Assembly: GCA_977862235.1 (NCBI GenBank)
Contig: OZ374566.1
Span: forward strand, 62,001 to 126,000
Reading direction: 5' to 3'
Source: Dudresnaya verticillata
Lineage: Eukaryota
DNA length: 64,000 nt
The notes beneath the pieces were generated by a model. The model worked only from the letters and a program-made list of their open reading frames with translations, was not told the DNA's origin and made no database searches. Made by a program: the position numbers and the translations under genes. Positions 3,886 through 45,834 of this stretch are shown here, one piece after another; positions within the stretch are counted from its first letter, which is position 1, and the number at the start of each line of letters is the position of its first letter.

Positions 3886-4041
3886 CCCACGCCCTCCCTA
3901 CCCCGCCCACCCCCACCCTCCCAGCGCTCATCCGCACCACGGTCCGCGTCCGCGGTAATCGGTTCTCTTCTTTTTGTTGCCCCTTTGTCCGAAGGGGAAC
4001 ATATATGTGGTATAGTGAAAACCCACGAACTCCGAGACGGA

Positions 4042-4716
4042 TGTGGTGAAGTGAAAGGCACACCTGTAAGGAGAGCTGACCAGGCAATCCCAATAAGGAG
4101 TGATCTCACACGGCACCGGGGTGGTAGAGCTTAGTTCGTAAATCGAAGGGAGTACCTCGAGCGGCAACACCTGTAAGGAGTAAAGGGACGCAACAGACAA
4201 GGGGGACGGTACAGTGCCAGGACAGCTACACCGAGACGGAGGTAGGAGTAATCCGTGCACGGGGCTGGCGAGGGGAAACCGTAAAGGAGTATGAGGGTAA
4301 GGCTTAGGGTAAGTCACTTTGCCCAGGGTTGCGTACCCGTTTACTGTATGACTCGCGGTGGCCACCCATTAATATACTGGGAGATACGCCCCGCGGTCCG
4401 GTCCGTGTGGGCCAGAATCCAATGGGTCTGGTCCACCAGGTGGGTCCGGCCCTACTGGTCCCGGTCACCGTTACGGACATGCTCGGCATTCTCATTGGCC
4501 GGCTGACACTACGTACTGTACAGAATGATTATAATTACCTAATTACAAATAAATCAACTGCTTGACTCCTATTGGTGGTACGTGCAGACTCCAGCAGGGC
4601 ATACAGTGTTACTGTGTCACTGCACTCCGCTTCGGCTTTTGGCGCCAGCTCACCGGTGCGCCGGCCGTGAGTCGGCTCAACCGTCGTCCGCACTCCGAAA
4701 CGGCCGCTTCACCACA
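4042..4716 (-). repeat. 3' LTR of element A (675 bp)
   Basis: Direct repeat of 15103-15769 with about 12 substitutions and one 8-bp indel (CCTATTGG), counted by eye. Confidence 0.97.
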
Positions 4717-4878: not shown

Positions 4879-7595
4879 ATGGCGGTTGGCAGCACTGACC
4901 GCGGGCGGTTCCCTTTTCAGCCGACGCGCCATTCGCAGTCGGCGGGGGAGGTGCCAGCAGCGGAGATCTCCACGCGAGAAGAAGAACCGCGGCCGACCAC
5001 CATACCGGAGTTGCCTATCGTAGGGGCCGGAGCGCCAGGGCGTCCGACGAGCCCGAGGGTGCCACGCCGCCGCATCCAGGGCGAGGGCCCGATTTCGGGT
5101 ACACCGCTTCCGGATCGTCAAGTGGGATGTGGGGCACATAGGCCTGGTAGGGCCATGGGTAACACCGAAATGGAGTACCGCGCAAGCGGTGAGACACGAC
5201 AGGGGGGAGTCACGCCGGTTGCGCCGGAGCAGCAGTGGTCGACTCCGCATGGTCGGACTAGGAGCGTGCACCCACTGCCGTCACCGATGAGGGGCGGCGT
5301 GATTACTCCACCTGGGCCAAGGTCGTTCACTCCAGCTGGGTATCGGGGTCTCGCAAGCTCAACCGAGTACACCGATGAGGGGACGTGGTTGGGTCGCGAA
5401 TACGATCACCGCACCGGTCGGCGTCATCGCACCGAAGAGGAGCGCGACATAGTCCGCCTCCCCCTTCCCGTTTCGGTGTTCGTGATGTATTACGCCGATA
5501 CGCTGGAGGGGCGCCGCTATAACGCCGTGACGGAGTCAAGCGGGCTGATCAACCACAAGTGGTTTCCGAACCGGCAGGAAGAAATGTGGAAGTCCCGCTG
5601 GATTCACTCCGCGTGCCGGACACGGACTCCTCGTGGGTGTGACATCGTATGGGTGCGGTGTCAGGAAGAAGAGGGTTATGCCGAGAAGGTGTTCCGCTTA
5701 TTGGTGTCCGCACATCGGCTGCAGAATCGTCCAGTGGGTGTGGAGTTTTTGTGCTACTCCAAACCGTACGACCAGGGTGTACATTGGTTTGGCAATCCGC
5801 AACGGTGGTCCGACGACGCAGCGAAGGAACACCGACTCCGTTCACGGGATCGCGATGGGCGCCGCTTGGGTAGGGTATTACTCCACACGTGGAATACCCA
5901 CGAATTCTTCCAAGTGCCGGCGTCATCGCACCGCAGCCTCTACCTTACCGCGCCAGAATGGTGGGCAGAATACGAGGTCACCCGCTGGCTTTCGGTTCCA
6001 ACTCCGACTGTGGTGGCGTACTTCACGAATAGGTTCCTTCGACACCGTAATTGGAAAGAGTTACACCCTAGCGGAGAGAAGTCAATCGATCACCCACAGA
6101 TGGCCGTTTTGGAGTTGATCCTGCGTTCGGAGTGGGCGATGTTCGTCCTCTTTTCGTGGCTTCAAGTTACCTATCGCGGTGTGTGTGCTAACACGAAAAT
6201 GACCGATTGGAGAGCCTTCCCAAGGGACAGCACCGAGCCGGAAGGTGGCGACTGCGGGCGCATTTTCGAGTTGCCCGCCAAGGTCGTCGCGCTCATACAC
6301 CAAATGGGAGTAGCCGCGCTCGTGGAGGGGACCGAGTATCCATTGGAGCGCGTGCAATGGTTGTTCACGATCCACGCAAACACCAACTGGAAGAAGACAC
6401 CGGGTTTCGTCGGCTACCATTGGGACGACGACCGGGTGTTGTCCGTTCCGCCGTTGAGTCCAGGGTGCGGTCTACCTTACTACCTGTCGGCGGAGGATCC
6501 CAATCCGGTGTGGTTGCTTGATGAGGAGATGGCCAACTGGCATGCGATGCGATCCCACACCAGGCACTATCCGGTTACGGAGGGGCCACCGAGGCGGTTG
6601 GGACACCGCGAGTGGGGTATGCCGTCTGGGGCACGTGCGCGTGGCGGGAGCCCCTTGGCAGATCAAGAAGAAGTTACACCCGTGGGAATGGTAGGCATCG
6701 AGCCAACGCGTGCAGACCCGAGGGTGCTGGTGCCCCGCGAATCGCCAGAGGTTGAGTCGAGTACCCGCGATCGCGTGGCGGTACCGCCAACTAAGCCCGT
6801 AACGGTGTCTCCAAAAGGAGCAGAGGCGCAGGGGACGAAGGTTGTGCTGCCGCCCCCGTCAGCACTGGAGCACACCGATGCGGTTCCAATCATGACAGTG
6901 GTGCGGCCGAGGGTTAGTGAGGCCCGTACTCCACGAACTACGGGAGAGAAGGTTACCGGCGTGGAGACCCAGCCAGTAGCGCGGGCGGCCAAGACCACTC
7001 AGCTGGGACCCATTGGGATGCCAGAAGACTCCGATGCGGAAGTTACTACCACGCCGATGGGGAAAAGAAAGGCGTCTACACCATTGGGGGTGAATCCGTC
7101 CGCCAAAATGCAGGGCGGTACACCAAACCGGGGCGGCGTTGTCAAACCGACGTCGACAGAGTCCAGTGACTCCGTCGTCTGCGTCACCCCTTGGATCCAG
7201 ATGGTACCGCGGCAAGGCTTACCGACTCCGTCACGGTAAAGGAGGAGAAGGACACCGATGCGGAGATGTCGACGTGGTGCGACGCAGATTTGCGTGTCGA
7301 TGGGGCTGCGCTGCAGCGACTCCGCGATGGGTGTAGGGCCGCAGGTATGCCACTTCCAGCGTCGGCGAACGAGGCCATTAACACCGCTGTGTTGTGGGTC
7401 GGGCGTCTGGCGCACCTACGGCGTACCATTCGCGCTTCGCGTCGACGCATGGCAGACACCGGCAGGAGACTCACCATGATTACCGCAAGGGTGTATGGTG
7501 AGGATATTCCCGACTTGGAGGAGAGTGCGGCGAAAGAGGAAGATACGGAGGCTGACCTGGCGCCGCCAGCGAAGCGTCCACGAAATGCGTTGTAA
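4879..7595 (+). CDS. Antisense accessory ORF of element A, function unknown; one frameshift near 7190
   Basis: 835-aa ORF 4732..7239 continued by 7191..7595. The likely start is ATG 4879, matching the position of the A' start. It is strongly similar to the A' ORF, has a W/Y/R-rich core at about 5380-6560, and AATAAA follows at about 7616. Confidence 0.85.
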
Positions 7596-7979: not shown

Positions 7980-10900
7980 TTATCGACGCGGGGGAGCTCT
8001 GCGACGTCGAGCTGCAGCGGCTGCTGTGCGCTTTCTATTCCAATAGCGGTGTATGAAGTTTTGCGGCAACTCCTCAGCGGGTTCATACGTGTCTTGGTCT
8101 GGTGGGTAGCCGTACCAACGCACCTTGTAGGTCATGCCCGTGGGTTCTTCGCGGTGTCCCACGACCTGCTCGATGACATACTCCGTGTCGGCATCAATTG
8201 TTTCCGGCACGGGGGCAGAAATACCGCCTGGTGTTTGGGGCGTTACAGTAATACCACCTGGTGTTTGGGGTACTACTGTGGTACCTCCCGCCTGTTGGGG
8301 TACTGTACCGTCCATGTCGGTGTGTGGCGTAACCGGCGGAGCCAATAGCGGCGCCGGTTGCACGGGAACTCTAATTGGTACCTTAGTGATGCGATCGATG
8401 CTGATGGGAATCAGGACGCCATTTTTCTTGATAGTGACTACAGTATCCGTTGCGGTGTGCACCTCGTAGGGGCCCGTCGATCTTGGGAGGAGCTCTTCAT
8501 TTGCTCCGCAAATTCACCGACGTGGTCAGGGCCTTGGCCCAATCGGTCGCGTTCCTTCCGTTCGGTGGGCCGTAGATTACGCGGCGGGCGATCTACGTAG
8601 ACTTGATCGCCACCGCGGACCACCGGTCGGAAACGCACCTTACGGTCGAATAGGGCCTTGGACTTCAACTGGGCTGCAGTCTGTTTGGTCTGTGCCTTCT
8701 GTAGGGCATAACGCAAACGCCGCATGGTTCCCGGTTTTTGGAGTACGGGCGTCATACGCCCCTCCGTAACGGTTTCTTCCAACTCCACAGGGGTGCCACG
8801 CACAATAATATCCGATGGGTGTCGAGTTAACACCAAGTCTAAGGGAGTAGTATCCGTAATCCGGTGTACCTGCATATTGTAGGAGTAGGTTAACGGCTGT
8901 AGGTATAAATCCCAATCGGTGTGGTGATCCTCGACATAGTGTCGAAGGCGCTGCGCGATGGTTTTGTTAAACCGCTCGGCTTGCCCGTTGGCTTGCGGGT
9001 GGTAGGCAGCGGTCAGCAAATGCCGCACTCCGAGTAGGGCACAGACAGCGTCGAAGAACTTCGCCGTGAACTGTCTTCCATTGTCGGTGAGTACAAATTT
9101 AGGTGCGCCATACGCATACACCCAATGGTCTAAAAATGCGTTCGCCACCACGACGGCTGTAATCGTCCGTAACGGAATGCACCGTGTTAGCTTAGAAAAC
9201 CGATCGGTGATGACCAGTACAGAGACATATCCCCGTTTGGTTTTCGGCAGCGGGCCCAATATGTCCGTAGCGACAAACGCCAGTGGGCCAGTCGCGGGGA
9301 AAAGCTTCATGAACTTCTGATGCCTAAACCGCGTGCCCTTGGTTTTGACACATGAGTGGCAACTCCGAACGGTCTCGAATACATCGTTAGCCATATGTGG
9401 CCAATAGTAGTCTCTCCGTAAGGTGTATTACATCTTAATTCCACCAGGGTGTCCCGACATCAAGGTGTAATGGGCAAGGTACAGGACCCTACCGCGCATC
9501 TGTTGCGGTACCACCTTTTGGAGTGCGCCGTCGAGGGCAGACTTGCGCACAAGAAACCCATGTCGGTCGTAGTCAAATTGTGATCCAGGGGATCCCACTG
9601 ATTCGGCTTTGAGCTTGCAGAAAGTATCTGTTGCTTGCGCGGCTATGAACTCCTCACGGGTAAGGGTCTCATTGCGCATATCCTCTTGTTGGATAACCGT
9701 TTGCCGGAGTGGAGTGGGTGGTACTGTATCCTTTTCAGGCGTAGTATCCGTTTCGGTGTTTCCACTTTCAACGCCTAGGACAAGGCTGCTTGCGGCATCA
9801 GGCTGTTGGTTCTGTTTCCAATTGGTTAGTCGCACACCATGTTGCACTACCCCATTAGGAGTCGATTCCATAACGAAGCAAGGCACTTCTTCATCCAATT
9901 CAGCTTTGTCAGCACCACCTGTTCAGAGTCTTGACATACCGTCTGCGAGTTGGTGCTTGATACCAGGGCGGTATTGTACTTCGAATTCAAATTCCGATAG
10001 GCGTAGGCGCCATCTTGCTAAGCTTCCAGACGCATCGGCTAAACTCAATATCCAGCGTAATGCGTCGTGATCCGTACGGAGTATAAACTTTTCACCATAA
10101 AGGTAGGGGCGTAGCGATAGCATACTCCAAACTACAGCAAGGCACTCCTTTTCAGTGGTTGTGTAATTCTTCTCCGCATCGGTTAGGCTTCGGCTCCAGT
10201 AACCCACTGGTAGATTATCTCCACTAGGTTGCTCCTGGAGAAGGACACACCCAACTTGGTAATCACAAGCGTCGGTATCCAATGTATACTTGAAACCATG
10301 GTGGGGTAAAGCCAATATTGGAGGGGAGATTAAGTGTCTCTTTAACTCCTCAAAGGCGTTAAACTCCGTTTCGGTGAGAGTTCCAAACTCGAATACCAGA
10401 CCCTTGCCGGTTTTCTTATTGAGTGGCGAAGCAATACGTGCGAAATTAGGAACGAAGCGTCGATAGACGTTACATAAACCTATAAAAGAGCGTAATTCCG
10501 TTTGGTTTGTAGGTGGCATAGCCTCCTTAACGGCGAGAATATTCTTCCGTTCCACTTCCAGTTGGCCTGGGCGCACGATGTGGCCCAGATACTGTACGGA
10601 AGTGTCGAAGAAGGCACACTTTGATAATTTCAGAGTTACACCTGCGGAACGGAGTAGCGTGAGGACCTCCTTAAGGTTTTCGAAGTGCTCCGTGACGGTG
10701 TTAGAATATACAATCACATCATCCAGGTAGACTAAGGCAAATTGCCATTTCACCGTAGATAGGATGATGTCAACCGCCCGTTGGAAGGTAGCGGGTGCGT
10801 TCTTGAGCCCAAAAGGCATTCTCCGGAAGCGGTATAATCCATAATGACTGGTGAAGGTGGTTTTGTCACGCTCCTCCTCGGGGATCTCTACTTGCCAATA

Positions 10901-12378
10901 GCCACTATTACAATCCAGAGTGGTGAATACTGTAGCTTCTCCAAGGAAGTCGATACATTCATCCATCCGGGGTAAAGGGTATGAATCCCGAACGGTGACA
11001 GCGTTAAGTCGCCTGTAATCGACACAAAACCGCATGGAGCCGTCCTTTTTAGGAACGAAGACCACAGGGCTGGCCCACTCCGAAGCGGATGGCTCGATCA
11101 CCTTAGCGGACAACATACGATCCACTTCTGCCTTCTCCAGCTCGCACTGTTTATGTCCTGCCCGATATGGTGCTTGATACACCGGTTTGGCACCAGGCAT
11201 TAATTCAATACGGTGTTTCGCGGCAGTTATATTTCCTAACTCGCCGTTCCACATAGTGCTGAACTCCTCGAGGAGTGTAACCACCTTAGCGCGGAGTTTT
11301 TCATCCTTGGCACCAATATGGATGTTATCTTTCCAATCGGTGTCAGGGGTTGTAGTTGATTCCGATACGGTGTTTCCTTTGAATCCATCCTGGGGTGTAG
11401 CCTTGCTGCTTTCATTAGGAGGAGTAGGAAAGAAATTAATATGTCCTCCCCCCTCCTTAAATGGAGGTACACCGTTAACGGTGAGTATGGCAGAGGGAGC
11501 AGCAGTAGTGAGGCCCAGGACGGTAGACTTGGGTAACCGAACCGGTTTGGGGGAAAAATTAGTCAGCCACACCTTAAAGGGTTTGTTAGGGATTATATCC
11601 ATAACTCCTTTAGCCATAAGGGTGAGGTGCTTATGGATGGGTTTGGGATGGTTTTGAAGAAAACACAAACCACCGGTAGGAGTGGTGACCAATGCAAGGG
11701 ATTGGGTCATAGGGGGATAATAAGGGATGTTGCTAGACGGAGCTTTTGCGATACCGAAGCGGATGACACAGGGGGGCTCTGAAGAGTAGAAGCAGCCACC
11801 GTTTTGGAGTATCTGGTTTGTCCCATCAGAGAAACCGGAGAGTGGTGATGAAAAACAACTTTCCGTGCCGGTGGGAGGATCGCCTTGACATGGCGATCAA
11901 TGAAACTGGTTCCCAGAATACACGGAGCAGCGAGGTTCGCGACCACCAGGAAGTGGACTCGAGTACGCAATTCTCCGATACGGACAAAAAGTTGAATGAC
12001 ACCAAGCGGGCGTATAGACCTATTGGACGCATCCCGTAAAGGTGGACTGGCTGCGGGGCGGATCAAAGACAACCAGTGGCGTGGAAGCCGCCTGGCGTTA
12101 ATGAGATTTGGCCCAGCACCAGAATCCAATACGGTGATGAGAGGCAACATGAGGTCATTACTCCTTCCCACGGTAATCTGGATTTTATAATTCTGCCGTT
12201 GTAGAACACAGACAGAATCACCGGGTGGTGGAAATTCAAGGGGGATTTCTGGAATAAAATCAAGGGGGTACTCCATAATGGTGGCGGACTGACACTCCGA
12301 CAAAGCCCGTGCTGGTGGGCGTACCACGTCGCGTTGAGGAGACGGGGACGCCCTTACACGTCTCCTGCGACGTTTTCC
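7980..12378 (-). pseudogene. pol: pol of element A: protease, RT, RNase H, integrase, chromodomain; interrupted
   Basis: Motifs: LDSGAGPN (PR); WASPVVFVPKKDGSMRFCVDYRRLN and YLDD (RT); LDTDAC and EKECLAVVW (RH); H..GHPG, C..C, TDNG and QAERFN (IN); EYVIEQVVGH...YKVRWYGY (chromodomain). Breaks at about 11707 (frameshift), 9923 and 9428 (stops), and about 8460 (frameshift). Confidence 0.95.
8219..8310 (-). repeat. Three 30-bp tandem units in the integrase-chromodomain linker of A
   Basis: Encodes TVPQQAGGT-TVVPQTPGGI-TVTPQTPGGI. Confidence 0.7.
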
Positions 12379-14938
12379 GAATCGGGGTGCGCCATGGGTG
12401 CCTCCTCCACCATATCAGCTGGGGGCTCGCCAACCGCACCACCATCGACAGTCAGCACCCGCGCTGGGCGTTGCTGGTAGTTACCCGGCGGACGATTTCC
12501 CGTATTGGAGTTGGCGAGGGCCTGCCGTTTGAGGAGGAGCGCCTGATAGTTGCGCTCACGCTCTTCCATCAGGGGACCCCTTTCGGTGTCGCTCAGATAC
12601 GGACAAATTTCATGGTCCGGGGAGAGGCACAAGCGATAGTAGCCGCTTCCATAGAGGTGTCTGACATCCGGTGAGGTGTGATCCGTATGCTCTGCAGCAG
12701 GGGATTGTTTTCCAATACGGTGTTCACCCTGCCCTTGACGGGGAGGCGGGCTGCCGTGGGGGTGTCCAATATGGCTGGGATGCTGCCCGGTGGTCCCCTG
12801 ACGGTGTGTGGCGGGGCCGTAGCGGCTATCAGCCGGTCCGTAGCGGGGTTGTCGGGGTGGTGGCATCCGTGGCGCTGGTGGGCGAAGGTTGGGAGTCCGA
12901 GGCGGAGTAGGGTAGACACTACTTGGTGGGGAAGAGTACGCTGTAGTAACGTAACCCCCGACGAGGTGCCAGCGCTTCGACCCGCGCCACCTTCCAGGGC
13001 GAGCACGTGCTCCTCCGATTCAGCGGGATACTCCGAGTAGGTGTACTCCGATGGGGAACCAATCGACAGAACGCCAGAGCGTCGTGACTGACTCTTAGGT
13101 TTTCCATCGAAGACGTGCACCACTGAGGTTTGGCGTCTGGTTGCCGGATGGGATTCTCCAAGCCCTTTAGCGTAGCGGGTGATGGCTTGGTAATCCATAT
13201 GGGGGTGTGTCGCCAGATAATTGCGCATCTGCTGACACGTTCCCGGTAGGAGTCCTTCCACAAACAGCGACTTGAGGGACCTGTCGGAGAATACTGTACC
13301 GCATCGGAGTGCCTTAGTCCAAAGTTTGTTAGAGAATTGCTCTTCCGTTAAGGCGGACGTTTGTCGAAACGACGTTACGTCCGAATACCCTTCGGCAATC
13401 ACCTCATCGGTAGCATAAGTCCTTAGCAAAAAGTTCACCACTTCGGAGTAGGTGCGAAGCATCTCTGCTTGCTCCTCGTCGACCGCCATGGTGCCACCAG
13501 CGAGACGGGCCTGAAGCAAAGCTTCAGCCTGTCCACTTAAGAAAAACTGGAAACACCACAGTGCGGTTCCTTCCGAAATGGAGTTGATGTTACACGCGTC
13601 CTTGAACTTCGCGAGAAATCCAAGGACCGTGATGGGGTCTGTACCGTTAAAGGAGTGGGACTTCATTTGCACCTCCAGCTTTTTGCGGATACGTCCCATA
13701 TTCTGGGACAAGCTAGAGCTGTAGTATGAAATCTTTTTCTCCAGTCGGTATGTTCGGAAATCCAGCGCCTTCACGAACCTGTCGTTCAGGGGCCGGATCA
13801 CCTTTGGGAGTGGCCTATCGACCTCTCGGTGTTTGGCGTCGTGTTTTCTGGCCCGACGCCGCTCGTCCCTATCCGTATCGGAATAGCTCGTATCAGAGCC
13901 GGAGGAATGGGAGGAGTCATGCCCTTTTCGGCGCCTATGGCGCGACTTGCGCTTATTCTTCTTCCTATTGCGGTGTTGGCTATCATCAGATTCCGTACCG
14001 GAGTGTTCTTTGTCCCGTCGCGAAGCGCGTTTGCTCCGTTGCGAACGGTCACGTTCCTTATCGGAGTGGGAGTCCTTGGCCTTTCTGTCAGCACTGTCTC
14101 TACCACTCCGGTCTTGGTTTTTCTTGGAGTCACCATCGGAGTGCTCACTGCCTCTACGCGAAGCCACCGGCACGGTGATACGTTCCCCCGCAGGCACTTC
14201 TGCGGGTCCAGGTACCGTACTCCGATTCGGTTGGGGGTGGTGTGTTGGATCCAATTCGGTGTATTGAGTTTGGGTAGGTAACCCAGGGGCTGCCGCTGTC
14301 CTTACCGGATCGGGCGGAAACACCTGAGCGGGGATTTCTGGCATATACGTCGTTTCTTCCTTGACCGGGAAGTTGTTCCGTATCGGTGTAGGTCCAGAAA
14401 AGGGCTGCTCCTTGGGTCCCGGTAGTGGTTCGGGGATGAGCATCTGCTCGATCTCCGACGCCTGACGCTCCTGACGGATGAGCGTCTGTACCAACTCCGG
14501 AAGGTGTTTCTCCAGGTAGGAGCTAACAATGACCGGAACGGTGTCGGCGAGCGTGGTCTCAACCTCCTTGAACATGTTGGGTTGCACCTCTATACGGAGA
14601 TGCTCCAACACCCGTGGGATGACCTCCGAAAGTATCCAATGGACACGATTGGAGTCACCTGGCTTGGATACACCCTTGCGGGAAGTGTCTGAACCAGGTC
14701 GGGATCTAGAGAGCTTACTGGCTACTCCTTTAAGGAGTTCTTCGGGGTTCTCCATACCGGGGTTCAGGTCGGCAGCATCGCCACGGCGTGTTCTCGTGGC
14801 TGAGGCTACCTCCGGTTCGGTGGGCTCACTGCGGCGTGTTCTCGCAGTAGCGGGCACCTCCGGGACGGTGTTGTCGTCACCGCGGCGTGATCTCGCGGTT
14901 GACGGCACCTCACCTTGATCCGATACGGTAGGGTCCAT
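12354..14938 (-). CDS. gag: gag of element A; frameshifted near 12870-12960
   Basis: 781-aa ORF plus a 170-aa ORF between PBS and pol. The capsid-like core FNGTDPITVLGFL...FLLRTYAT is shared with the gags of B and C, and a basic/Ser-rich region precedes it. Confidence 0.85.
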
Positions 14939-15078
14939 GTTTTCTTCTATTCTTAGGTTACCAAAATGGAATCAACGAGTGTTTTGCCTTGTCCTGCCTT
15001 TACACCAATACGGAGTTGGCACAAAGCTGATCTCCTACCGAAGCGGAGTCCAACGGAGATTCTTCTACCTTGACGGTT

Positions 15079-15096: not shown

Positions 15097-15102
15097 AAAA
15101 GA

Positions 15103-15769
15103 TGTGGTGAAGTGAAAGGCACACCTGTAAGGAGAGCAGATCAGGCAATCCCAATAAGGAGTGATCTCACACGGCACCGGGGTGGTAGAGCTTAGTTCGT
15201 AAACCGAAGGGAGTACCTCGAGCGGCAACACCTGTAAGGAGTAAAGGGACGCAACAGACAAGGGGGACGGTACAGTGCCAGGACAGCTACACCGAGACGG
15301 AGGTAAGAGGAATCCGTGCACGGGGCTGGCGAGGGGAAACCGTAAAGGAGTATGAGGGTAAGGCTTAGGGTAAGTCACTTTGCCCAGGGTTGCGTACCCG
15401 TTTACTGTAGGACTCGCGGTGGCCACCCATTAATATACTGGGAGATACGCCCCGCGGTCCGGTCCGTGTGGGCCAGACCCCAATGGGTCTGGTCCACCAG
15501 GTGGGTCCGGCCCTACTGGTCCCGGTCACCGTTACGGACATGCTCGGCATTCTCATTGGCCGGCTGACACTACGTACTGTACAGAATGATTATAATTACC
15601 TAATTACAAATAAATCAACTGCTTGACTTGGTACGCGCAGACTCCAGCAGGGCATACAGTGTTACTGTGTCACTGCACTCCGCTTCGGCTTTTGGCGTCA
15701 GCTCACCGGTGCGCCGGCCGTGAGTCGGCTCAACTGCCGTCCGCACTCCGAAACGGCCGCTTCACCACA
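15103..15769 (-). repeat. 5' LTR of element A (667 bp)
   Basis: Copy of 4042-4716, adjacent to the PBS and followed by the TSD ACGGA. Confidence 0.97.
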
Positions 15770-16546
15770 ACGGACAGCTGGCCTGACTTTCCTTAACGGA
15801 CGAGAGCAACACTACCTCCACGGGGTGGTAGAGCAGTTCGCACCGAGACGGGAGAACAGCGAGCGGCTAACCGAGACGGATATTGGGAAGCAACAGACAA
15901 GGGGGTGGTACAAGTGCCGGGACGGACTCCGTAACGGTGGTGGTGGTAGACCGCAACGGGTTCGGCGCGGGGAAAACCGTAAAGGATTGGGCTAAGGTTG
16001 CTTACCCGTTTACCTTAGGAGCCGCTGCGGTGCCGCCCTGATATACAAGTCAGGGTGGCACCGAGCGGTCCGGTCCGTGGGGCCCAGACCCTAGTGCTCT
16101 GGTCCTATGGTGGAATCGGCCCTGCTGGTCCCAATCTCCGACACGGACATGCGCAGCATTCTCATGGGCTGGCGCACTACTCTACATACTTTACAGATAC
16201 TCACTAAAAATAAAGCATAAACACTACAAATACTCCGCTTCGGTTGGTGCGCTCCAGTACTGTACAACAATGCGTACCAGCGTACAGCAATGCGCACAAC
16301 ATCCGACACGGTTACACGTTGCCAGATCATCAGCGTGGCGTATTGCCACATCACCCGTTACGGTTGGCTCGCCGTCGGCGTGCCGCGTGCGCGCCACGGC
16401 TCACTTCACCACAGACCTCCCTCCTTAAATGGCGCCACGTCCTCTGGCGCCCACCGTCACGGATTACCTTTGCTTCCACACCCACACACAACCGATACGG
16501 TTATCTTCCTCAACTCTTCCTCCTCTTTCGTGCGCCCGCTTCCAAG

Positions 16547-18523
16547 ATGGCAGGGGAGAAGAGCAAGCGCTCCACTTCCCCCTTTCAACGGACACGACGT
16601 ACCCGCGCGAGCTCAGCGGCGAGAGCGCCGGGTGCGCCTACCGTTACGGATGCTTCGACTCAAGCGCAGGCCTCGGCCTCGGCGGATGTAGCACCACGCA
16701 CGAAGAGTTGTCGCGTGGGTGTTACCGCAGCGGAATCATCACAGGCACCATCGGCGGGCCGCGGCTGGTCTGTCTACGATCCGAATCGGTTTGCTGCGAG
16801 TGCAGCCACAAGGACCGTGCTACCAGGGAGTGCAGCGATCAACCGTGACGGAGAGGCGCCAACCAAGGACCGCGATGATGCGTTCCGTCGTGGTGGCGAG
16901 GAGCTCAGCTTGGCAGACCTACCGGCCATTCCGTTACGGACACCATCGACACCGGTATCGACGCCGAGTCGTAGGATGGTGTCTAGTCCACATCCTTCCT
17001 CAAGTACACCGAAACGGATGCGTGGGCCCCCGCAAATCAATCCACTTGCACCGGGGCCTTGGTGGCCGGCGGTTCATACCCGTGACGGAGAGTGCGCTGC
17101 CCCGAGTGATTATTGGCCGGGGCAACACTTTGATCATCGCGCGGGGCGCCCGGCTAGAACCGATGCGGAGAGGGCAAAGATGAAGCCCCCGATGACGGTG
17201 GATCTCTTCATTGAGAAATATCCAACCGTCTTGGAAGCAAGAAGGTACAAGGCCGTCATGGCTCAACCCTTCAAGGCGAATCAACGCATTGGCGTTGTTC
17301 CGAATCGGAGAGAATTTGTACGGAAAAGCCGATGGGTTCATGGCTATTGCCAAGCGCGGACCTCTACCGTTTCGGATTTGTTGTGGTATCGCTGCCATGG
17401 GGAGGTAGGATATACCGCAAAGGTGAGTCACCTGTTGGCCAAAGGTTTCCGTCTGCGGGGTGCGCCGGTCGGAGTGCAATTCATTTGCTTCGACCGCCCC
17501 TATGACCAGTCGGTATATTGGTTCCGCTATGCCGACGGGTGGAAGGACGATGCCGCGACGGAGCACCGTTTGCGAACTCGTTCCCGTGACGGAATGCAAG
17601 TTGGCTCACCAATCCTGCATACGTGGAACACTAAGGAGTTATTCCATCTTCCTTATCGGGTGCGTCGTGAATTGTACCTTACAGCTCCGTCATGGTAGGA
17701 TCGTTATGAGGTGACCCGTTGGTTGTCTGTCCCCACGCCTTCCGTCGTGGCATACTTTTCGGCGGACCTACTCACCGAACGGGAGTGGAATTACAAGCAT
17801 CCGAACGGAGAGCGTCCCCCGAATCAAGATCAGCTCGATGTACTGTGGCCATCTTCCGATCGGAATGGGCAATGCTGGTGCTCTTCTCGTGGCTCCAGGT
17901 GGCCTATTACGGAGTACGGTATAACACCAAGTTAGCCGACTGGCGATGCTTCCCACGGGATGAGGATGACCTGCCCGGAGGAGACTGTGGCCGTATTTTT
18001 CAACTTCCCGTAACGGTGATGGCCCTAATTCGCCAAGTCGGCGTAGCCGATTTGGTGACGGGGTCGGCGTACCCTCTCCATCGGGTGGAGCGTCTTTTAT
18101 CCGTACACGGAGAGCAGAATTGGCAACGCACTCCGGGCTTCTTGGGGTATAGTTGGGACAAGGACCGTGTCCTATCGGTGCCCCCGCTTAGGCCCGGAGT
18201 GGGTGAGCCATATTTCCTTCATCGAGAAGATCCGCGTCCGGAATAGTTGGCCTTAGAGGAGTAGGCCCATCGTGGCTATGCTCCTCGCCAAGCACCAAGG
18301 GATGCGTACCGTGACGGTTTAGACGGGGCTGAAGATTGGGGGAGCTGTCAGGAGGCAGCGGGGCGTTCGCGTACAATCGACCCGCGCGATTCCGTTACGG
18401 TGAGGAAGCAAGAAGCAGACCCTTTCTTGGAAGAACAGGAGGAGATCATGCCCGTCGCATCAATGGCAGCGGGTAGCGAGAAGACACCCGCTCCAATCCT
18501 TCCGGTGGTCGCGACGCCTACGT
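16547..18523 (+). pseudogene. Antisense accessory ORF of element A', decayed and truncated
   Basis: Homologous to the A antisense ORF (RKSRWVH, EHRLRTR, LHTWNT, SEWAMLVLFSWLQV, GGDCGRIF). Stop at 17696, frameshift at about 17850, stop at 18244. Confidence 0.85.
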
Positions 18524-27216: not shown

Positions 27217-29521
27217 CTACGGCTTTTTTGTCGCAGACGGCTCAGATGGGGCATCATCCCCGACGCCATTGGCGGATTCTGTTAACGCCTCTTCGTATAG
27301 GTCGTCTTCCGTCACCGACGGTGCGCTCGCAGCAGGGGCAGGGACGGACCACAAGGGACCCGCCATAACCACTGCTGTCGAAGTCGCGACATCCGCCGCT
27401 GGCGACGCGCCTGGCTCACAACCCGCCTTAGGCGACGACTGTTCGTCAACCGTCATAGGCGCAGCGTTAGAGTCATTATCCGCCTTAGGCGCTAAACCAG
27501 GAAGCACACTCGCCTCTGGCGGCGGAGCATCCTCAACCGTCTTGGGCGAAGTCGACGGCCCCAGCACCTCCGGTGACGGGACCGCATTAACCGTCAAAGG
27601 CGTTGAACGATCAACATCCGTCACTGACGAAGAGGCCACTGGCGCTTGCGGAACCGCCGTAGGTGCTGCCACCGCACTTGCCTTTGGCGGACTTTTGTTA
27701 ACAACGTCAGTGGACGCAATGGGGGACGAACCCGCACAACCCGCCTTAGGTGACAAAGGCTTTTTCGCCACTCCGTCATTAGACGCTGCACCTTCGTCGT
27801 TAGAAGGCACAGTCGCAACGACGGTCGACGCCGGAACCGCAGCAACGCGGGGCTGCAGAGCAGCCAGCAGCGAGTGCCCGAGGGGCGTCGTGGATGACCC
27901 GCCCGACCCGTCAGTGACGACACCGGTGGCTCGCAAAAATGCGAGCACCGTGTGGCGCTGCTCCTCAGTCCATTCGGGCACTGCAGGAGGGCAATTCGCA
28001 CCGTCAGCGACGTTAGACAAGCCGCCTTGAGGCGTAACTGCAGACGCAGAACTCGAAACGGGCGCAACCATGATGGCATCACCATCACCGTCATTTACGG
28101 GCGCCGAGAGATCAATGGCGCAACCGACGGCAAGCCAACAGGCACAACACCCGACGGTCCTACCGCCGCTGGCGAAGTCACCGTGGGAGCTGTCGCCCCC
28201 GCAGTAAGCTCAACCGCCATAGGCGTAATGATGTCCGTCCCAGACGGTTTAACAGGTCCGCTGTTAGCGTGGAACGCATCCTACTCCGCCATCAAGGCGC
28301 TCAAGTGGGGTGGGAAATCCCCCGCAAAGTCGCAATTCTTGCGCAACCCACGTGGGTGATTCGCTGGCGTGAAGTGGTCCGTACGACGATGACTCTCAGC
28401 TATGTTCTCCGTCGTAAGACGTTTGGTCCACGGGTTGTACCACACCCAATCGCCACAGGCGGAATGGTTTCTACTCATCGCGTAACGCGGACGGTTTGCC
28501 TTACGGCACCTGTTCCCCGATGGCACAGCAACCGGGTCGTCCCAGTTGACGTTATCCGCCACATGGCGTAGATCCCAGAACTCTTGGCAATTCTTGGCAC
28601 CGCCCAGCACTTCAGCCAAGTCAAGCCCGCCAAGGAGGCTGACCACGCGTGGCGGCACATAATAGAGCCGGAAGGTGTCATACACCTCCCACATCCAAGC
28701 GTAAGTTACGTTGATGACCCACTCGGTGAAAACACGATCCAACATCGAGAGTACGGATCCGTCCGCAACTCGGAGCCAATATACATGACACAGGGAGGCA
28801 ATTCAGCCGCAAAGCCCTCGCAGACCTCAAAGTCCCGCCACAACGGTGGGACACGAATGAAGCAATGCGGCAACTTTTCCTGCTCAATGCGATCGACTTG
28901 CGTATCTTGATAAGGCACAAAAACGCCTTTGCGGCGGCACGTTTCGCACTCCCAACGGACGCAGCGCTCCCAATAGAAGGTTCCCATCCTATGCAAGTAT
29001 CGGAAACCCGCTTTCAAGCGTACACCAAGGAGGTTAGCCTCCTGAAGTACCCGCAGCTCAGCCGAAACAGCCACATGGCTTAGTGACAACGTCCCAAGAC
29101 GGTCCCCATACCCAACCTCACCATTGGTGCGGTACTGCCCTTCGTCAAATTCAAAGACGGTGGGCGTCAATACCGACTCCGGATAGCGGGTAAGCCACCG
29201 ATACACGTCAACGAAGAAACGCGCATGCGCATCTGTACGCGTCTGACCGGCTGCAATACGCAGCCAGCCTCTCGGGATGGCGCACCGATGGCGCCAGTCG
29301 TTCGTCCACAAGACGGCCAGGGGCAACTCCCCTGGAAAAACTCCGCTCACAGCGTAATGGATGAGGAGGTCCTCGTGCCGCAGGGCCTCCTGGTCGAACC
29401 AGGGGGCCCGCGAGAATACTCGCGCATCGTTGCGGGGAGTCCTCCCGACAAAGTTGAATGGTGACGGATACACCGGCGCCGCCGAGGGCGCAGCCACTTG
29501 AAGGCCGTTGAACTGGGCCAT
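27217..29521 (-). pseudogene. Antisense accessory ORF of element B (conserved N-terminal half, A/P/S/T-rich tail)
   Basis: ORFs 28706..29677, 28281..28745 and 27217..28071. It is homologous to the + strand ORF of C (FARAPWF/FSRAPWF, YRTNGEV, G.FVPY, CGD.V.Y.PW) and to the D ORF. Confidence 0.85.
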
Positions 29522-31622: not shown

Positions 31623-32422
31623 TCGCCCCCTCCTAAGAGCGAAACCCGCTGGGCCAACCCCCTTCCTTCGGCGGCAATCGTAACTGTACGGAGTCTCCTC
31701 CGGTTGTGCCTGCGTAGCAACACCCCGCAACATCAACATCCGTCTCTGACGGGACGGCTCATCCGTTGAACTGCCCGCGGCTCTCCGCGTTCCTGCTGTG
31801 AGTGTTATCATCCCGCGGCCGTGTGTGGCGACTCACTACGAAGGCGATTTCGGAAAAATCCTTTTTCCCATGCGGATATTCATGATTTTTTATGCCTCAC
31901 GTTTGGCCCGGGCGAGTAATGAATATCAGCATTTCAAATAAAGGTTCAGCGCATTGATTTCCCATGGCGCACGAATCCAGCGGAATGATTCGTGAATCAC
32001 ATTTTCGCTCTTTTGATGGCGCTTGAGGCCCCTGCAGTATCAATAGTCATACGGTATTCCGTTTCGGTAATGCATCAGTTCCGACCTGTGTGATGTGGCA
32101 AATCGCAAATCTATTTACGCACTGCTATGATTCTGAAACCGCAAAAGTAATGCGTCACAGCATTACCGCGGTAATGCCGCGGTTCCATTTCCGAGTCTAC
32201 TATCGCTGTGCATGCGGCCGCATGGATTTTCTCGCTTTAATTCATGGAAACTGCTGCGTCACATGCGCCGCCCCAGGCAGGCAGGCCTGCCGCATGTTGG
32301 TAGTCCTACGTCTACACTACATAATAGCTCCGTTCTTAACTTCCTCGCTCAGAAGCGCCGTGAACTCTTTGCAAAGTACGTCTCCTTCACGCTGAAAGCA
32401 GGGTACAGATACCTCGAGAACC

Positions 32423-34044
32423 TCAGTGCCTTGCGAGCCTTTTGCAAGGTCGGCCGACCATACGCGAGGACGAACAGCCTGTGCTCGACGCCACGCTACG
32501 TAAAACCCTCGGGGATTTTTGTCGCACACTTGAACCTTGCCGTTTAGTCGGATCTTCGACTCTGGAAGCGACTCGCTTCGAAACGCGAAGAGGATGCACA
32601 AACCTGCAATCTGTGGAACACCATTGCCTACTGTCCCGCATCAGGACTGTGGAAGCATCTTTCGTGCTGTCTGTAGGTCGTGTCATGCTGCGACCGCAGC
32701 TTTTCCGTACGAAAAGGGCACACGGATATGCTGTGTTGTCCTTCGTGTACTCATACGTGCCTAGAATTCGAATTAACCTTCCTTTTTTAGAAGAAACTTC
32801 CTTCGTTAACATTTCGAGCCCGTCGGCGAGTGCAGTTATACCAAGACATCTGCATAGAGTTCCAAAAGATTTGAAACAGATGAACATAACATCAGTCGAC
32901 AATGACGGCCACTGTGTGCTCTCGAAAGATGGGAAGAAGGAGATTGTATTATCCTCTTCCCCAGTCATCTCCATGGGCGACGCGGCCGCGTCGTCTCTCG
33001 TTGCCGCCCATGTCCTAGCGATAATAGCAAACTGCGCCACATCGAAATCTGCAGACACCTTCAAACAGAATTGCGCTGTGTCATTCAGCAGAACTCTGTC
33101 GTCCATGTGATGATCATCACCAGCTTCTCTGTTGAGCCGCGCCGGTATTCTCCTGGCCCGTGTCTTCAGCGTGATTAGCAGACTCTGGGGAGTTCCACGC
33201 AATCTCGGTACTGCTCCGGCCGGGGTACATGCACTCGTATCGGCTGACACTCGTGGCTGTATTGGTGTCTGCGGTGTTTGGTCTTCCAACACATTCGAAG
33301 ATGCACTTCTTCTTATCGTTCTACTACTTGCAGCCTTCTTTCCCTTCCGGCGAGCTGGGGCCTTCTGCATGCAACTGGCCAGGCGATGGCGAAGGAACCC
33401 GAAAACTCTTTCACAGCTTTGATCCAGGCCTCGGTTCAAGCTTAGCTCTATCCGTGCAGTGTTTCTTTGCACTCGACTCTTGATCGTCTCTATCTCTGAG
33501 CCCATAGCAGAATATCGTTGTCGTAGAAAGCTGAACTCACGATTCAAATCAGAACTGTCCACAACTTCCACATCTTGCTCTCACTATTGCGGTATTCGAG
33601 ATCTTGGCTTCCCTGGCGGCGCTGCTGTTGACTCGAAACATTTTCGATAGGCGGGCCAGCCCGCGTTCTCCAACTCAGTAGAGGATTGTCATTGTCCGAG
33701 CGATCTTGTTCCCAGACACGAAGATGTCTACCTGCAATAAATTCAACCTTCTCAACAGTTGCCATATAGTCGTACTGAGTATTGGAAACATACTCTATAG
33801 TCGCGACAGCGATTAAGTCACCGTCGTCAATTTCAACAACGTCCAATACCTCAGCATCCCACCGCACTTCGTCACCATTGTTCATCTCCCATGCCACCTG
33901 TACCCATTCATTGGCAAGCGGCAGAGTGTTGCGCTCCCTGCACCTCCTCATGTTGCAGAGTGTAATGTGCGGATGTTTGCTGATGCATGCAAAAGCATAC
34001 GTCTCCGTACGCGATGAGCAGGCCTGCTCAGGAAACTGTGACAT
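32423..34044 (-). pseudogene. CACTA accessory gene 1, unknown function; N-terminal part resembles a Tudor/Agenet-like beta-barrel
   Basis: Overlapping ORFs 33544..34044 (166 aa; EWVQVAWEMNNGDEVRWDAEVLDV) and 32423..33571 (382 aa, coiled-coil-like start), linked by a frameshift or intron. Confidence 0.55.
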
Positions 34045-34329
34045 AACAATTCACAAATGCGAAGTGCGGGTCAATATCGGCAATTGTGCAACCATGGAAC
34101 AGGTCTGCAGGCCTGTAGGCCTGCAGTGCTCCATTTCGCAACTTATCACGATTCTAGTTCATGAGAGCTTGTAGATCTACGCAGTATTTTGGCTGAATCA
34201 CTTCGAGTACTGGCAAAGATACGCAGAAAGGGCTTATCGGGAATTTGCAACGGCCGTTCCTCCGCGCGCGAGTGCCATACTTTTATCCGTCTCTCCGCGT
34301 AGAGACCTCTACCCGTCAACGCGTCAAGA

Positions 34330-36956: not shown

Positions 36957-37389
36957 CGGCATTTATGTAAATGCACAGTCTTAAGCTGCATCTCATATGT
37001 GTTTTTGTGTGCACACACAACCATGTTTCAGACGGTTAACCATATCGTTAACCATATGAGTATGAATAATGGAACTTGAGCTTCTCGCCCCGTCGCGGCC
37101 GCGTGGGGTGAGCAACTCGCAAGGGAGAGAGCATTTTCCAACCCAGTCTTATGAGAAGATATGCATCAACAATCAAGACAATAATGTCAAGTGAGAACTG
37201 AACTAGAGCTCATTTACTCAACGACATAGAATGTAAACATCTACTGTTGTGCACGTTCCAGCACCGGACGGAAATACTAGTAGTTCAAGCAACTGCTCTA
37301 CGCATACTCCAAATGCATGTTAACAATCTTGCATGAAAAGGGCGACCGCCCTTTTCGAGAACGGTCTCAAAGAACCAGATCCGGCCGGA

Positions 37390-40300: not shown

Positions 40301-40457
40301 CAGCGGGTGCCACGCTCTTGACTTTATCCTTCCGCTTAAGCCGATTGTCGTTATGCGAAGTACCCTTGCCTCCCGGTCCCGTGGCCGCGGCATCTCGAGA
40401 TCTAGTAGTTGCATAGCGGCTTCGAGAACTGCTGCGAGTCTTGACGCGACTTTCCAC
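37390..40457 (-). CDS. CACTA accessory gene 3; shares a domain with the Gypsy antisense ORFs
   Basis: 936-aa ORF 37390..40200, probably extended 5' by 40017..40457. The core LLVPY...VPEWL...VPLPLCVWY...RLWDVFKVEVLALITAIWHNE...GRPFIL is followed by an R/G/Y/D-rich low-complexity tail. Confidence 0.75.
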
Positions 40458-41711
40458 CTGCTTCTTCTTACCGAGACCAGGGCGTTTCCTCTTGCAACGC
40501 GCTCCCGCACTGTCCTCATCAACTTGGCCAACGAGCTTCTTCTTAACAAGTATCGGCTTGGGCGTGGTGATGCTTCATTTCTGAGCTGGCGCGGCCGCGC
40601 CTACAGGCCTGCATGCAGGTCGCCCGGTCTGCGCTGCCGAGCCTTTCGCAAGCTCTGCACGTGCTCCAGCGACAGCTCCAGTAACATGTTGAACTGCAGT
40701 TGCCTTAGCCACTGATGCCTTCTTCTGCGGTGAAGCCGCGATGCTCTTGTTCTGCGGTGATGAAGGGCTTATCTTATTCTGCGGTGCGGGGACTTGTCGG
40801 CCTTTCCAAGACCATCATTGGAGGCGGCGGCCGCCGCGCGATTCTGCATGACACGTTCGCCGACCATGACGGAGCTGGGCTGCGTTTCCCGCAATGCCCG
40901 TGTGTGGAGGGGAGGAGAGAGAAACCAGCGGTGATGCACAGCGCGACTCCGCGGAGTCTTTAGCCATGCGGTTGAGTGCTCTCACACTAGTGTGTAGTGC
41001 GGGCGGGGGTGGGGAGGTTGCTACCTCATGATGCCATGACAGCCGCGGCTGGCCCACGGGCATATAGCTTCTTCGTCGGCACGCTGATTTGTTTACCGAC
41101 GGAGCGCAGTTCGGCCGAACAAGAATTCCATGGCCTCCCATTGGTCAAGGATAAATCTAAGTCGCGTGATTTTGTTGTTAAATCCACAGCTTTGCCTGGG
41201 CAGGCACGTACGTTCAGCCGCAGCTCTGTGTGTGTGGCACGCAGATGCCGGCCTCAAAGGGTTTTTTTGGACAAATCATCTTTGCAAGGCCATCAAACGC
41301 GTGTGCGTGCACGTAACCGTCCCATCACAGTGGCTGTACGCGTATACCGATTCATGGCTGCTGTAAACTGCAGCAATGACGTGTGTATTGCACTGCAGTC
41401 GGGCCCTACTGCAGCTCGAAATACGAAAAAGGCGGGCACGCCCGAGTCGCGGCTCTGCAGTGCGTCCCTCATTACGATGTGAATGAAGCTTGTGGTGTAG
41501 CAACGCGGTCGAATTGCAAAGTCCTCAAAGTGCGGAAACCGACAAACAGCTTTGCAGCGGCGACGCCCGAACGCCCATTGTGCACAGATTTCTATAGCAA
41601 TTGGAGCTCCGAATCCGGTCACGTCCGTCAACGGGAATGGGCGGAAGGAACCGAAAGAAGTTTCAAGGGCGACGCAAAACTAGACTTCGCTCATGGGTGG
41701 AGAGCGTTGGA

Positions 41712-45798: not shown

Positions 45799-45834
45799 AT
45801 GAAGCACGGTCGTGCTACCCGCATGTCATAATGG

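What the first reader, a model, noticed from the sequence alone, without database searches (positions are those of the whole stretch)
4879..7595. All five Gypsy copies with the relevant region carry a large antisense gene between pol and the 3' LTR, in two divergent but homologous subfamilies
Seen in sequence: A (4879-7595) and A' (16547-18523) form one subfamily. B (27217-29521), C (46631-48837) and D (62581-end) form another. Where the 3' LTR is present, the ORF starts about 130-460 bp inside it (for C, after removing the CACTA) and runs against the gag-pol strand. The subfamilies share the pattern (S/T)EW-x7-W ... R(I/M/L)(F/Y).(L/V)P..(V/I)V ... (N/D)W, e.g. A TIHANTNW, C QLHSTIDW, B HVADNVNW. 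Established knowledge: antisense extra ORFs are known in plant Tat-lineage elements such as Grande, RIRE2 and Retand, which lack chromodomains. They are not a standard feature of chromodomain Gypsy elements. Inference: this is an ancestral, selected third gene driven by antisense promoter activity at the 3' LTR. It shows no evident signal peptide and does not look env-like.
Basis: partly seen in the sequence, partly recalled or inferred. Interest (0 to 1): 0.75.

Follow-up and report, generated by a model that had tools for sequence, protein, structure and literature searches.

The report
Antisense accessory gene in Gypsy retrotransposons
All five Gypsy retrotransposon copies in this window carry, backwards between their polymerase gene and end repeat, a conserved gene for a protein whose predicted fold matched no solved structure; it is likely a nuclear helper protein of the element, and a neighbouring DNA-transposon-like insertion carries the same domain.

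Summary
All five pol-to-3'LTR regions (A, A', B, C, D) carry a long ORF antisense to gag-pol. A/A' and B/C/D are two subfamilies. Profile comparison shows they are homologous over a core of about 380 aa (hhalign 94-95%, E about 1e-7). Third codon positions are randomised while second positions are kept, so the frame evolved as a protein under purifying selection. None of the copies is intact: A has one frame break, and the others have stops and frameshifts. The family is not in Pfam. It has 82 relatives at E<=1e-3 in public protein sets, and the only named ones are 'hypothetical proteins' of the red alga Gracilariopsis chorda. AlphaFold gives a confident, mostly helical core (pLDDT 84, pTM 0.84) with no match in the PDB or BFVD. 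The protein has disordered arms, a C-terminal helical module and, in the A type, a terminal KRPR-like basic tail. The same core also occurs in a 949-aa ORF inside the 14.6-kb insertion with CACTA-type ends that splits element C. My reading is a mobile TE accessory gene, likely a nuclear regulator or anti-silencing factor; that function is inferred. The antisense promoter is untested. This is a new variant of the known class of antisense additional ORFs.

The parts
4040..4716 (-). 3' LTR of element A (TG..CA ends at 4042/4716); the PPT complement lies at 4717-4729
   Evidence: 97% identical to 15101-15769. The TSD is ACGGA at 4037-4041 and 15770-15774. The LTR-end plus PPT block is 89% conserved with A'.
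4879..7595 (+). Antisense accessory gene, copy A. Start Met at 4879, one frame break between 7170 and 7236, stop at 7593-7595
   Evidence: The start is homologous with the A' Met at 16547.
5389..6471 (+). Conserved alpha-rich core domain of copy A (about 360 aa)
   Evidence: The profile finds 82 relatives. AF2 gives pLDDT 83.6 and pTM 0.84. Conserved residues are listed.
7290..7592 (+). C-terminal helical module and basic tail (AKRPRNAL) of copy A, in the second frame
   Evidence: It matches the C-termini of homologs. The equivalent part of P0001 is predicted as helices 458-473, 482-495 and 497-535.
7980..14971 (-). gag-pol of element A (PR, RT, RNase H, INT, chromodomain), with in-frame stops and frame changes
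15101..15769 (-). 5' LTR of element A
15821..16412 (-). Diverged 3' LTR remnant of element A'
   Evidence: 68% identical to the LTR of A; a conserved end block at 16396-16451
16547..18523 (+). Antisense gene copy A' (one stop, one frameshift; 3' end cut off by element B)
27217..29521 (-). Antisense gene copy B (three frames), inside element B (18524-30903, gag-pol on the + strand)
46631..48837 (+). Antisense gene copy C (at least 4 stops, one frameshift), inside element C (LTRs 30904-31622 and 58592-59307, gag-pol on the - strand)
62561..64000 (-). Antisense gene copy D (frameshifted; runs off the window), behind an integrase fragment at 59005-61235 (+)
31834..46482 (.). 14.6-kb insertion with inverted CACTACGA / TCGTAGTG ends, lying between the 3' LTR of C and its antisense gene
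   Evidence: None of its 54 ORFs of 90 aa or more has a credible Pfam match.
37393..40239 (-). 949-aa ORF inside that insertion. It carries the same core domain (residues about 216-519, window 38683-39594)
   Evidence: HMM E 3.2e-11 among 1568 ORFs. hhalign 96.3%, E 1.5e-9, 231 columns.

Best explanation
The stretch is copy A of a conserved protein-coding accessory gene that sits antisense between pol and the 3' LTR in all five chromodomain Gypsy copies of this window, and its product is predicted to be a nuclear protein that likely acts in trans on the element's chromatin or transcription.

Shown here:
- The gene is homologous in two deeply diverged Gypsy subfamilies.
- It evolved under purifying selection.
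- It belongs to a family of at least 82 proteins that is absent from Pfam.
- Its core of about 360-380 aa is confidently predicted as a mostly helical domain with no match among solved or viral structures.
- The core is flanked by disordered Pro/Ser/Thr/Arg-rich arms and followed by a helical C-terminal module.
- The same core occurs in a 949-aa ORF of a DNA-transposon-like insertion in the same window.

Inferred:
- It is transcribed as its own unit, from a promoter in or just inside the 3' LTR. The ATG lies 135-360 bp from the LTR edge.
- The A-type protein enters the nucleus through its terminal KRPR-type tail.
- The long C-terminal helix may pair.
- Elements that replicate by unrelated chemistry (retrotransposon and DNA transposon) carry the domain, so its job is generic to life in the host nucleus. 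The most likely job is regulating the element's transcription or countering host silencing, rather than reverse transcription or integration itself.

My odds: about 0.9 that it is a real, selected, TE-borne gene family; about 0.3 for the nuclear regulator or anti-silencing mechanism.
For: Five of five pol-3'LTR regions carry the ORF.

Coding signature:
- A/A' identity by codon position is 0.59-0.63, 0.67-0.77 and 0.34-0.36.
- B2/D2 dN/dS is 0.23-0.34 over 74 codons.
- B versus C tblastx similarity at E 4e-46 lies only in the claimed frame.

Cross-subfamily homology.

Family:
- 82 proteins at E<=1e-3, 22 at E<=1e-10, best 2e-31.
- The named members are multi-copy hypothetical proteins of Gracilariopsis chorda.
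- 16 of 19 homologs have no Pfam hit. The other 3 have only sub-threshold coiled-coil-type hits in the C-terminus.

Fold:
- pLDDT 83.6, pTM 0.84.
- Foldseek against the PDB gave nothing at E<=0.001 for two models.
- BFVD gave nothing.
- VIA-align against 48,161 chains gave a best Z of 3.6 and none at 5 or more.

Architecture: (P0001: core 55-386 confident, 387-452 disordered, C-terminal helices).

Basic tail: strict KRPR/KRQR within the last 8 residues in P0001 (and its 3 cluster mates), P0003, P0004, P0007, P0010, P0017 and copy A. By a loose pattern, 14 of 35 homologs of 480 aa or more have one.

Domain in the insertion with CACTA-type ends.

Literature:
- Red-algal Plavaka (CACTA-superfamily) transposons carry accessory genes that have moved between TE families (bioRxiv 10.1101/2025.02.11.637652, sections 8 and 21 read).
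- Plant antisense aORFs are suspected nuclear regulators (PMC7264820, passages; PMC11963269, abstract).
Against: - There is no expression evidence of any kind.
- No copy in the window is intact, so none need be functional today.
- The B/D-type tails are acidic and lack the basic motif. 21 of 35 long homologs lack even a loose basic tail, so nuclear targeting is not a family-wide feature.
- No DNA-binding or chromatin domain was recognised.
- Many conserved residues are Arg/Glu/Asp/His/Tyr, which would suit an enzyme as well.
- The central conserved helix is hydrophobic (Kyte-Doolittle 19-residue mean 1.4-2.2). Membrane association is therefore not excluded, although AF2 packs the helix inside the domain.
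- The insertion has no recognisable transposase. Its class rests on 8-bp termini and no clean target duplication.
Confidence: 0.5

Rival explanations
1. The protein is an enzyme or a nucleic-acid chaperone that takes part directly in replication or integration of the element, and is not a regulator.
For: About 25 strongly conserved positions are dominated by Arg, Glu, Asp, His, Tyr and Trp. The domain is large and globular.
Against: The same domain sits in an insertion with DNA-transposon-type ends, and such an element does not use reverse transcription. Foldseek and VIA-align gave no clear match to any solved structure, which includes nucleases, recombinases, polymerases and helicases; a weak or missing match does not exclude these folds. 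There was no Pfam hit.
Confidence: 0.15
2. The family is the same as PAG1, the accessory gene of unknown function in red-algal giant Plavaka transposons, and it was picked up by Gypsy elements. This is a question of identity and is compatible with the best explanation.
For: PAG1 has no InterPro or HHpred domain. [quoted passage not shown] Here a homolog lies in an insertion with CACTA-type ends, and the named relatives are from red algae.
Against: No PAG1 sequence was available to compare, because the preprint's supplements are closed. The insertion here has no PAG2-type DNA methylase or SET domain among its 54 ORFs of 90 aa or more, so it is not the described three-gene cassette.
Confidence: 0.3
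3. It is a passenger: a captured host gene or a nested independent element with no role for the retrotransposon.
For: No function was shown. Gene capture by LTR elements is known (PMC7264820, passages).
Against: The position and orientation are the same in five of five copies, across subfamilies with 59% RT-RNase H identity. Purifying selection acted during element divergence. Divergence follows that of pol: B is closer to D than to C, and A is far from all three. The ORF has no termini of its own.
Confidence: 0.1
4. What matters is the antisense RNA (dsRNA or siRNA control of the element), and the reading frame is incidental.
For: Antisense transcripts of retrotransposons without coding capacity exist, for example micropia (PMC7264820, passages).
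Against: The frame-specific conservation and the codon-position pattern, a confident fold and 82 protein relatives all show selection on the protein.
Confidence: 0.05

Closest known systems
Antisense additional ORFs between pol and the 3' LTR (aORF-3R) of plant Tat/Retand-lineage Gypsy elements: Grande gene23, RIRE2, Retand ORF4 with the TRP28/Transposase_28 domain
   Same: Same place and orientation. Conserved within the lineage. Function unknown, suspected nuclear or regulatory. Grande's gene has its own upstream promoter (PMC7264820, passages; PMC11963269, abstract).
   Different: Those elements lack chromodomains and are from land plants. The protein family differs: no PF04195 hit in the window ORFs at E<=0.01 or in 31 family members at E<=5. 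The gene here is larger, and its predicted core fold matched nothing in the libraries searched.
brtn, the antisense gene of Boty-like Gypsy elements of Botrytis and other ascomycetes
   Same: An antisense gene between pol and the 3' LTR of a Gypsy element, so the layout is not unique to Tat elements. Boty is listed in PMC7264820. That Boty-like elements carry chromodomains is stated only in this scan's notes, which are unchecked.
   Different: As described in those notes, brtn is small and spliced, with a cysteine-cluster and coiled-coil protein. The protein here is about 900 aa with a helical core and no cysteine cluster. There was no Pfam zinc-cluster hit.
Plavaka accessory genes PAG1-3 of red-algal giant EnSpm/CACTA-superfamily transposons (Petroll et al., bioRxiv 10.1101/2025.02.11.637652)
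   Same: Likely the same host lineage. TE accessory genes that move between TE families. PAG1 likewise has no recognisable domain. Here the domain is in both Gypsy elements and an insertion with CACTA-type ends.
   Different: Identity with PAG1 is untested. The sections read (8 and 21) say nothing about an antisense position in Gypsy LTR elements. The insertion here lacks PAG2 domains.
HBZ of HTLV-1, an antisense gene driven from the 3' LTR (the promoter is cited in PMC7264820; the protein details are recalled)
   Same: An antisense gene next to the 3' LTR. A nuclear protein with a C-terminal helical pairing region that regulates sense transcription; this is a working analogy only.
   Different: No sequence or fold relation. 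A retrovirus of animals. HBZ is a small bZIP protein.

Membership tests
aORF-3R class (antisense additional ORF of LTR retrotransposons) | A long ORF between pol and the 3' LTR on the strand opposite to gag-pol, present in most copies of the family | tested here: met
   Five of five pol-3'LTR regions. LTRs and pol domains confirmed.
aORF-3R class (antisense additional ORF of LTR retrotransposons) | Conserved as a protein rather than a chance ORF | tested here: met
   Codon-position pattern and dN/dS; frame-specific tblastx; 82 relatives.
aORF-3R class (antisense additional ORF of LTR retrotransposons) | Transcribed antisense from its own promoter | not testable with these tools
   No sequencing run could be listed for the stretch.
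TRP28 / Transposase_28 (PF04195) proteins of Retand elements | Match to the Pfam PF04195 domain | tested here: not met
   No hit in 8 window ORF pieces at E<=0.01, 19 homologs at E<=0.01 or 31 members at E<=5.
brtn-like zinc-cluster/coiled-coil antisense genes of fungal chromoviruses | A small protein with a six-cysteine Zn(II)2Cys6-like motif | tested here: not met
   No such Pfam hit. The core has no cysteine cluster among its conserved positions.
PAG1 of red-algal Plavaka transposons | Sequence homology to the published PAG1 proteins | not testable with these tools
   The sequences are in closed supplements of 10.1101/2025.02.11.637652. Only the text was read.
Retroviral/errantiviral env-like third genes | Sense orientation, an N-terminal signal peptide and a C-terminal membrane anchor | tested here: not met
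   The orientation is antisense. The N-terminus is hydrophilic. The only hydrophobic stretch is the central core helix.
Any solved protein fold (PDB) or viral predicted fold (BFVD) | Structural match of the core domain | tested here: inconclusive
   Foldseek found nothing at E<=0.001. VIA-align best Z 3.6. The AlphaFold DB was not available.

The most novel reading that the evidence does not exclude
Red algae harbour a TE accessory protein with a new fold that has hopped between chromodomain Gypsy retrotransposons and CACTA-type DNA transposons. It acts in the nucleus as a general host-manipulation module, for example an anti-silencing factor comparable in role to VANC of Arabidopsis VANDAL elements or TnpA of maize Spm.
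Probability: 0.25. Interest if true: 0.8.

Novelty: new variant of a known kind. Interest (0 to 1): 0.6.

Why it matters
Antisense third genes of LTR retrotransposons are known from plants and fungi, but none has an established function.

Here the gene encodes a large protein family that folds confidently and is otherwise unannotated. It is shared by retrotransposons and by an insertion that looks like a DNA transposon. That sharing narrows its possible role to something both kinds of element need in the host nucleus.

Little is known about how red seaweeds silence transposons. A TE-encoded factor of this kind would give a concrete handle on that question. It would also be a new domain worth solving and adding to the family databases.

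Tried and rejected
- No whole genome is held for the window.
- Sequencing runs: none was listed for 4040-7900, and no RNA holder was listed. Expression therefore stays untested.
- A word-indexed protein search with A residues 200-620 found nothing among 5007 candidates. With the family alignment it returned only P0027.
- ESM Atlas. The A core's best hits scored 0.76-0.77 (fungal clusters, partly DUF3723), which is in the range that shuffled proteins reach. DUF3723 did not appear in the Pfam scans of 31 members at E<=5, so this lead was dropped. The Atlas search with the insertion's 477-aa ORF gave only noise.
- A PDB sequence-profile search gave 0 hits at E<=1.
- Fold searches gave no clear match. 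This does not prove the fold is new.
- Metagenome scans. The first found 15 pattern matches and no relative. The second found one degenerate 1.9-kb relative without context. I therefore could not check whether relatives elsewhere also lie antisense in Gypsy elements.
- dN/dS. dS is saturated for most pairs, so I relied on codon-position identity.
- An intron as the cause of the frame change in A. A 62-bp GT..AG interval (7204-7265) would fit the frames but has a poor donor, so this is unresolved.
- Transposase in the insertion: no Pfam hit.
- Tandem repeats: none relevant.
- The REM1 paper (Chlamydomonas) is not held. What I know of it is recalled and was not used.
- I considered and rejected the ATG at 4732 as the start. 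It lies in the nucleotide-conserved block next to the PPT and is out of frame in A'.
Full report
WHAT IS IN THE WINDOW

The window has about 57% G+C and is a nest of chromodomain Ty3/Gypsy retrotransposons next to an intron-less host gene at 2-2341(-).

Pfam confirms RT, RNase H, integrase and chromodomain in elements A, B and C.
- Element A lies on the minus strand. Its LTRs are 4040-4716 and 15101-15769 (97.0% identical). It has TG..CA ends and a 5-bp target duplication, ACGGA. Its gag-pol (14971 to 7980) carries in-frame stops and frame changes.
- A' lies to the right of A. It is a fragment consisting of a diverged LTR (15821-16412, 68% identical to the LTR of A) and the antisense ORF. Element B cuts it off at 18523.
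- Element B runs from 18524 to 30903 on the plus strand. It keeps only the last 74-76 bp of its 5' LTR, followed by a PBS-like TGGTCTCCCGACC.
- Element C is on the minus strand, with LTRs at 30904-31622 and 58592-59307 (92.1%). It is split by a 14.6-kb insertion at 31834-46482 that ends in inverted CACTACGA / TCGTAGTG.
- D is an integrase fragment (59005-61235, +) followed by the antisense ORF, which runs off the window.

THE OBSERVATION

Each of the five pol-3'LTR regions has a long ORF on the strand opposite to gag-pol.
- Copy A is open for 835 codons (4732-7239). In 500 shuffles of the region the longest ORF had a mean of 179 codons and a maximum of 351.
- The start that A and A' share is the Met at 4879 and 16547 (MA...PFQ.TR). 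The ATG at 4732 lies in the nucleotide-conserved LTR-end/PPT block and is out of frame in A'.
- After a frame break between 7170 and 7236, copy A continues to the stop at 7593-7595.
- No copy is intact. A has that one break. A' has a stop and a frameshift. B is in three frames. C has at least four stops and a frameshift. D is frameshifted.

Pairwise identities:
- A/A': 49-57%.
- B/D: 48-60%. B/C: 32-34%.
- A versus B fails by tblastn (E 0.2-0.4).

A profile of the A-type family does reach the other subfamily. It hits B at 6e-7 and C at 0.005 among 1568 six-frame ORFs. hhalign links both halves collinearly, at 94.5% (E 7.5e-8) and 94.2% (E 1.1e-7).

IS IT A GENE?

Yes.
- For A/A', identity by codon position is 0.59-0.63, 0.67-0.77 and 0.34-0.36. 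This is the pattern of a frame under purifying selection with saturated silent sites.
- Where dS is not saturated (B2/D2, 74 codons), dN/dS is 0.23-0.34. The disordered tail gives 0.5-0.85. Pol controls give 0.06-0.23.
- Between B and C, tblastx finds strong similarity (E 4e-46) only in the claimed frame.
- Divergence follows the elements. RT-RNase H of A versus B is 59% identical, integrase 42% and gag 29%. The accessory core is detectable only by profile. B is closer to D than to C in both pol and the accessory gene. This fits co-inheritance with the element, but it is not a formal test.

THE PROTEIN FAMILY

No Pfam family matches any window copy.

An exhaustive HMMER search with the A/A' core found 82 proteins at E<=1e-3, 22 at E<=1e-10, and a best hit of 2e-31. 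Of the 20 hits looked up, the only named ones are multi-copy 'hypothetical proteins' of the red alga Gracilariopsis chorda. The rest are unnamed. The best named relative of the pol of element B is from Agarophyton chilense, also a red alga. I therefore infer a florideophyte red-algal host.

Of 19 homologs scanned, 16 have no Pfam hit and 3 have only sub-threshold coiled-coil-type hits near the C-terminus. Scanning 31 members at E<=5 added nothing.

AlphaFold2 with 84 sequences gives the core pLDDT 83.6 and pTM 0.84, mostly helices with a few short strands. A full-length homolog, P0001, shows:
- a disordered N-terminal arm;
- the core (55-386);
- a disordered linker (387-452);
- three C-terminal helices, the last about 40 residues long.

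No structure search gave a clear match:
- Foldseek against the PDB, two models;
- Foldseek against BFVD;
- an all-against-representatives VIA-align run, best Z 3.6 with none of 48,161 chains at Z>=5;
- a PDB sequence profile.

The conserved positions are rich in Arg, Glu, Asp, His, Tyr and Trp.

Copy A and six homolog clusters end in a KRPR/KRQR-type basic tail. By a loose pattern, 14 of 35 long homologs do. That this motif looks like a classical nuclear localisation signal is my recollection, not a tool result. The B/D type ends in an acidic tail instead.

The most hydrophobic segment is the long central core helix (Kyte-Doolittle mean 1.4-2.2). AF2 buries it. The N-terminus is hydrophilic, so the protein does not look env-like.

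AN UNEXPECTED RELATIVE

The same profile hits a 949-aa ORF at 37393-40239(-) at 3.2e-11 (hhalign 96.3%, E 1.5e-9, 231 columns). This ORF lies inside the 14.6-kb insertion with CACTA-type ends.

That insertion has 54 ORFs of 90 aa or more, and none has a credible Pfam match. It has no recognisable transposase and no methylase or SET domain. Its class therefore rests on its termini alone.

A 2025 preprint on Bostrychia (10.1101/2025.02.11.637652; I read sections 8 and 21) reports that red-algal giant Plavaka elements of the EnSpm/CACTA superfamily carry accessory genes PAG1-3. PAG1 has no recognisable domain. [quoted passage not shown] The family here could be PAG1.

MECHANISM

Shown: a selected, TE-borne protein with the architecture above, present in two kinds of mobile element.

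Inferred:
- It forms its own antisense transcription unit, starting in or just inside the 3' LTR. The ATG is 163, about 135 and about 360 bp from the LTR edge in A, A' and C.
- At least the A type is imported into the nucleus.
- It acts in trans on the element's chromatin or transcription. The reasoning is that an element that copies itself through RNA and one that cuts and pastes DNA share little except the need to be expressed in, and tolerated by, the host nucleus.

I put about 0.9 on the first layer and about 0.3 on the regulatory or anti-silencing role. The rivals are a replication or integration enzyme, a passenger gene, and an RNA-only function. They are listed with their tests.

COMPARISON AND NOVELTY

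The layout belongs to the known class of antisense additional ORFs between pol and the 3' LTR. Examples are Grande, RIRE2 and Retand with its TRP28 domain, and Boty in fungi (PMC7264820, passages; PMC11963269, abstract).

Boty is listed in PMC7264820, and this scan's own notes on fungal chromoviruses describe several cases (unchecked).

What differs here:
- the protein is a large family with no Pfam entry and no structural match;
- the host lineage is likely red algae;
- the domain is shared with an insertion that looks like a DNA transposon.

My searches for a description in print found none. The terms were 'red alga' + retrotransposon + antisense + 'open reading frame' + Gypsy; Gracilariopsis chorda + LTR + Gypsy; and Plavaka + 'accessory gene'. 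They turned up only the Bostrychia preprint, and the sections I read do not mention an antisense gene in Gypsy elements. Its supplementary tables, which I could not see, may bear on this.

I rate it a new variant of a known kind, with interest 0.6.

Noticed in passing
window 31834-46482: A 14.6-kb insertion with inverted CACTACGA/TCGTAGTG ends, lying between the 3' LTR of element C and its antisense gene. It has several long ORFs on both strands (385, 297, 334, 949 and 245+477+174+256 aa). None has a Pfam match and no transposase is recognisable. It is possibly a Plavaka-type element of red algae.
   Followed up: partly
window 2-2341 (-): An intron-less host ORF of at least 780 aa that runs off the window. 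It has a weak UBA-like N-terminal domain (PF14555, E 0.002, below the cut-off) and a long low-complexity body.
   Followed up: no
window 15083-15095 and 18600-18612: Elements A and B, whose RT-RNase H is only 59% identical, have the same PBS-like sequence (TGGTCTCCCGACC) next to the 5' LTR.
   Followed up: no
window 7787-7944: An 85-bp unit repeated 1.8 times, between the end of the antisense gene and the end of the chromodomain ORF of element A. Retand elements also carry tandem repeats in this region (PMC11963269, abstract).
   Followed up: no
window 24700-25800 and 50500-51900: In elements B and C the integrase and the chromodomain are separated by about 350 to more than 450 aa of low-complexity Pro/Ser/Thr/Ala-rich sequence within the pol ORF.
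   Followed up: no
window 18524-18599 and 30833-30908: Only the last 74-76 bp of the 5' LTR of element B survive (97% identical to the end of its 3' LTR). The 3' LTR of B abuts the 3' LTR of C directly at 30903/30904.
   Followed up: partly
L001 1-1872: A metagenome-collection contig (1.9 kb) holds a degenerate relative of the accessory gene, with an internal deletion and a C-terminal KRLR-type motif. No flanking context is available.
   Followed up: partly
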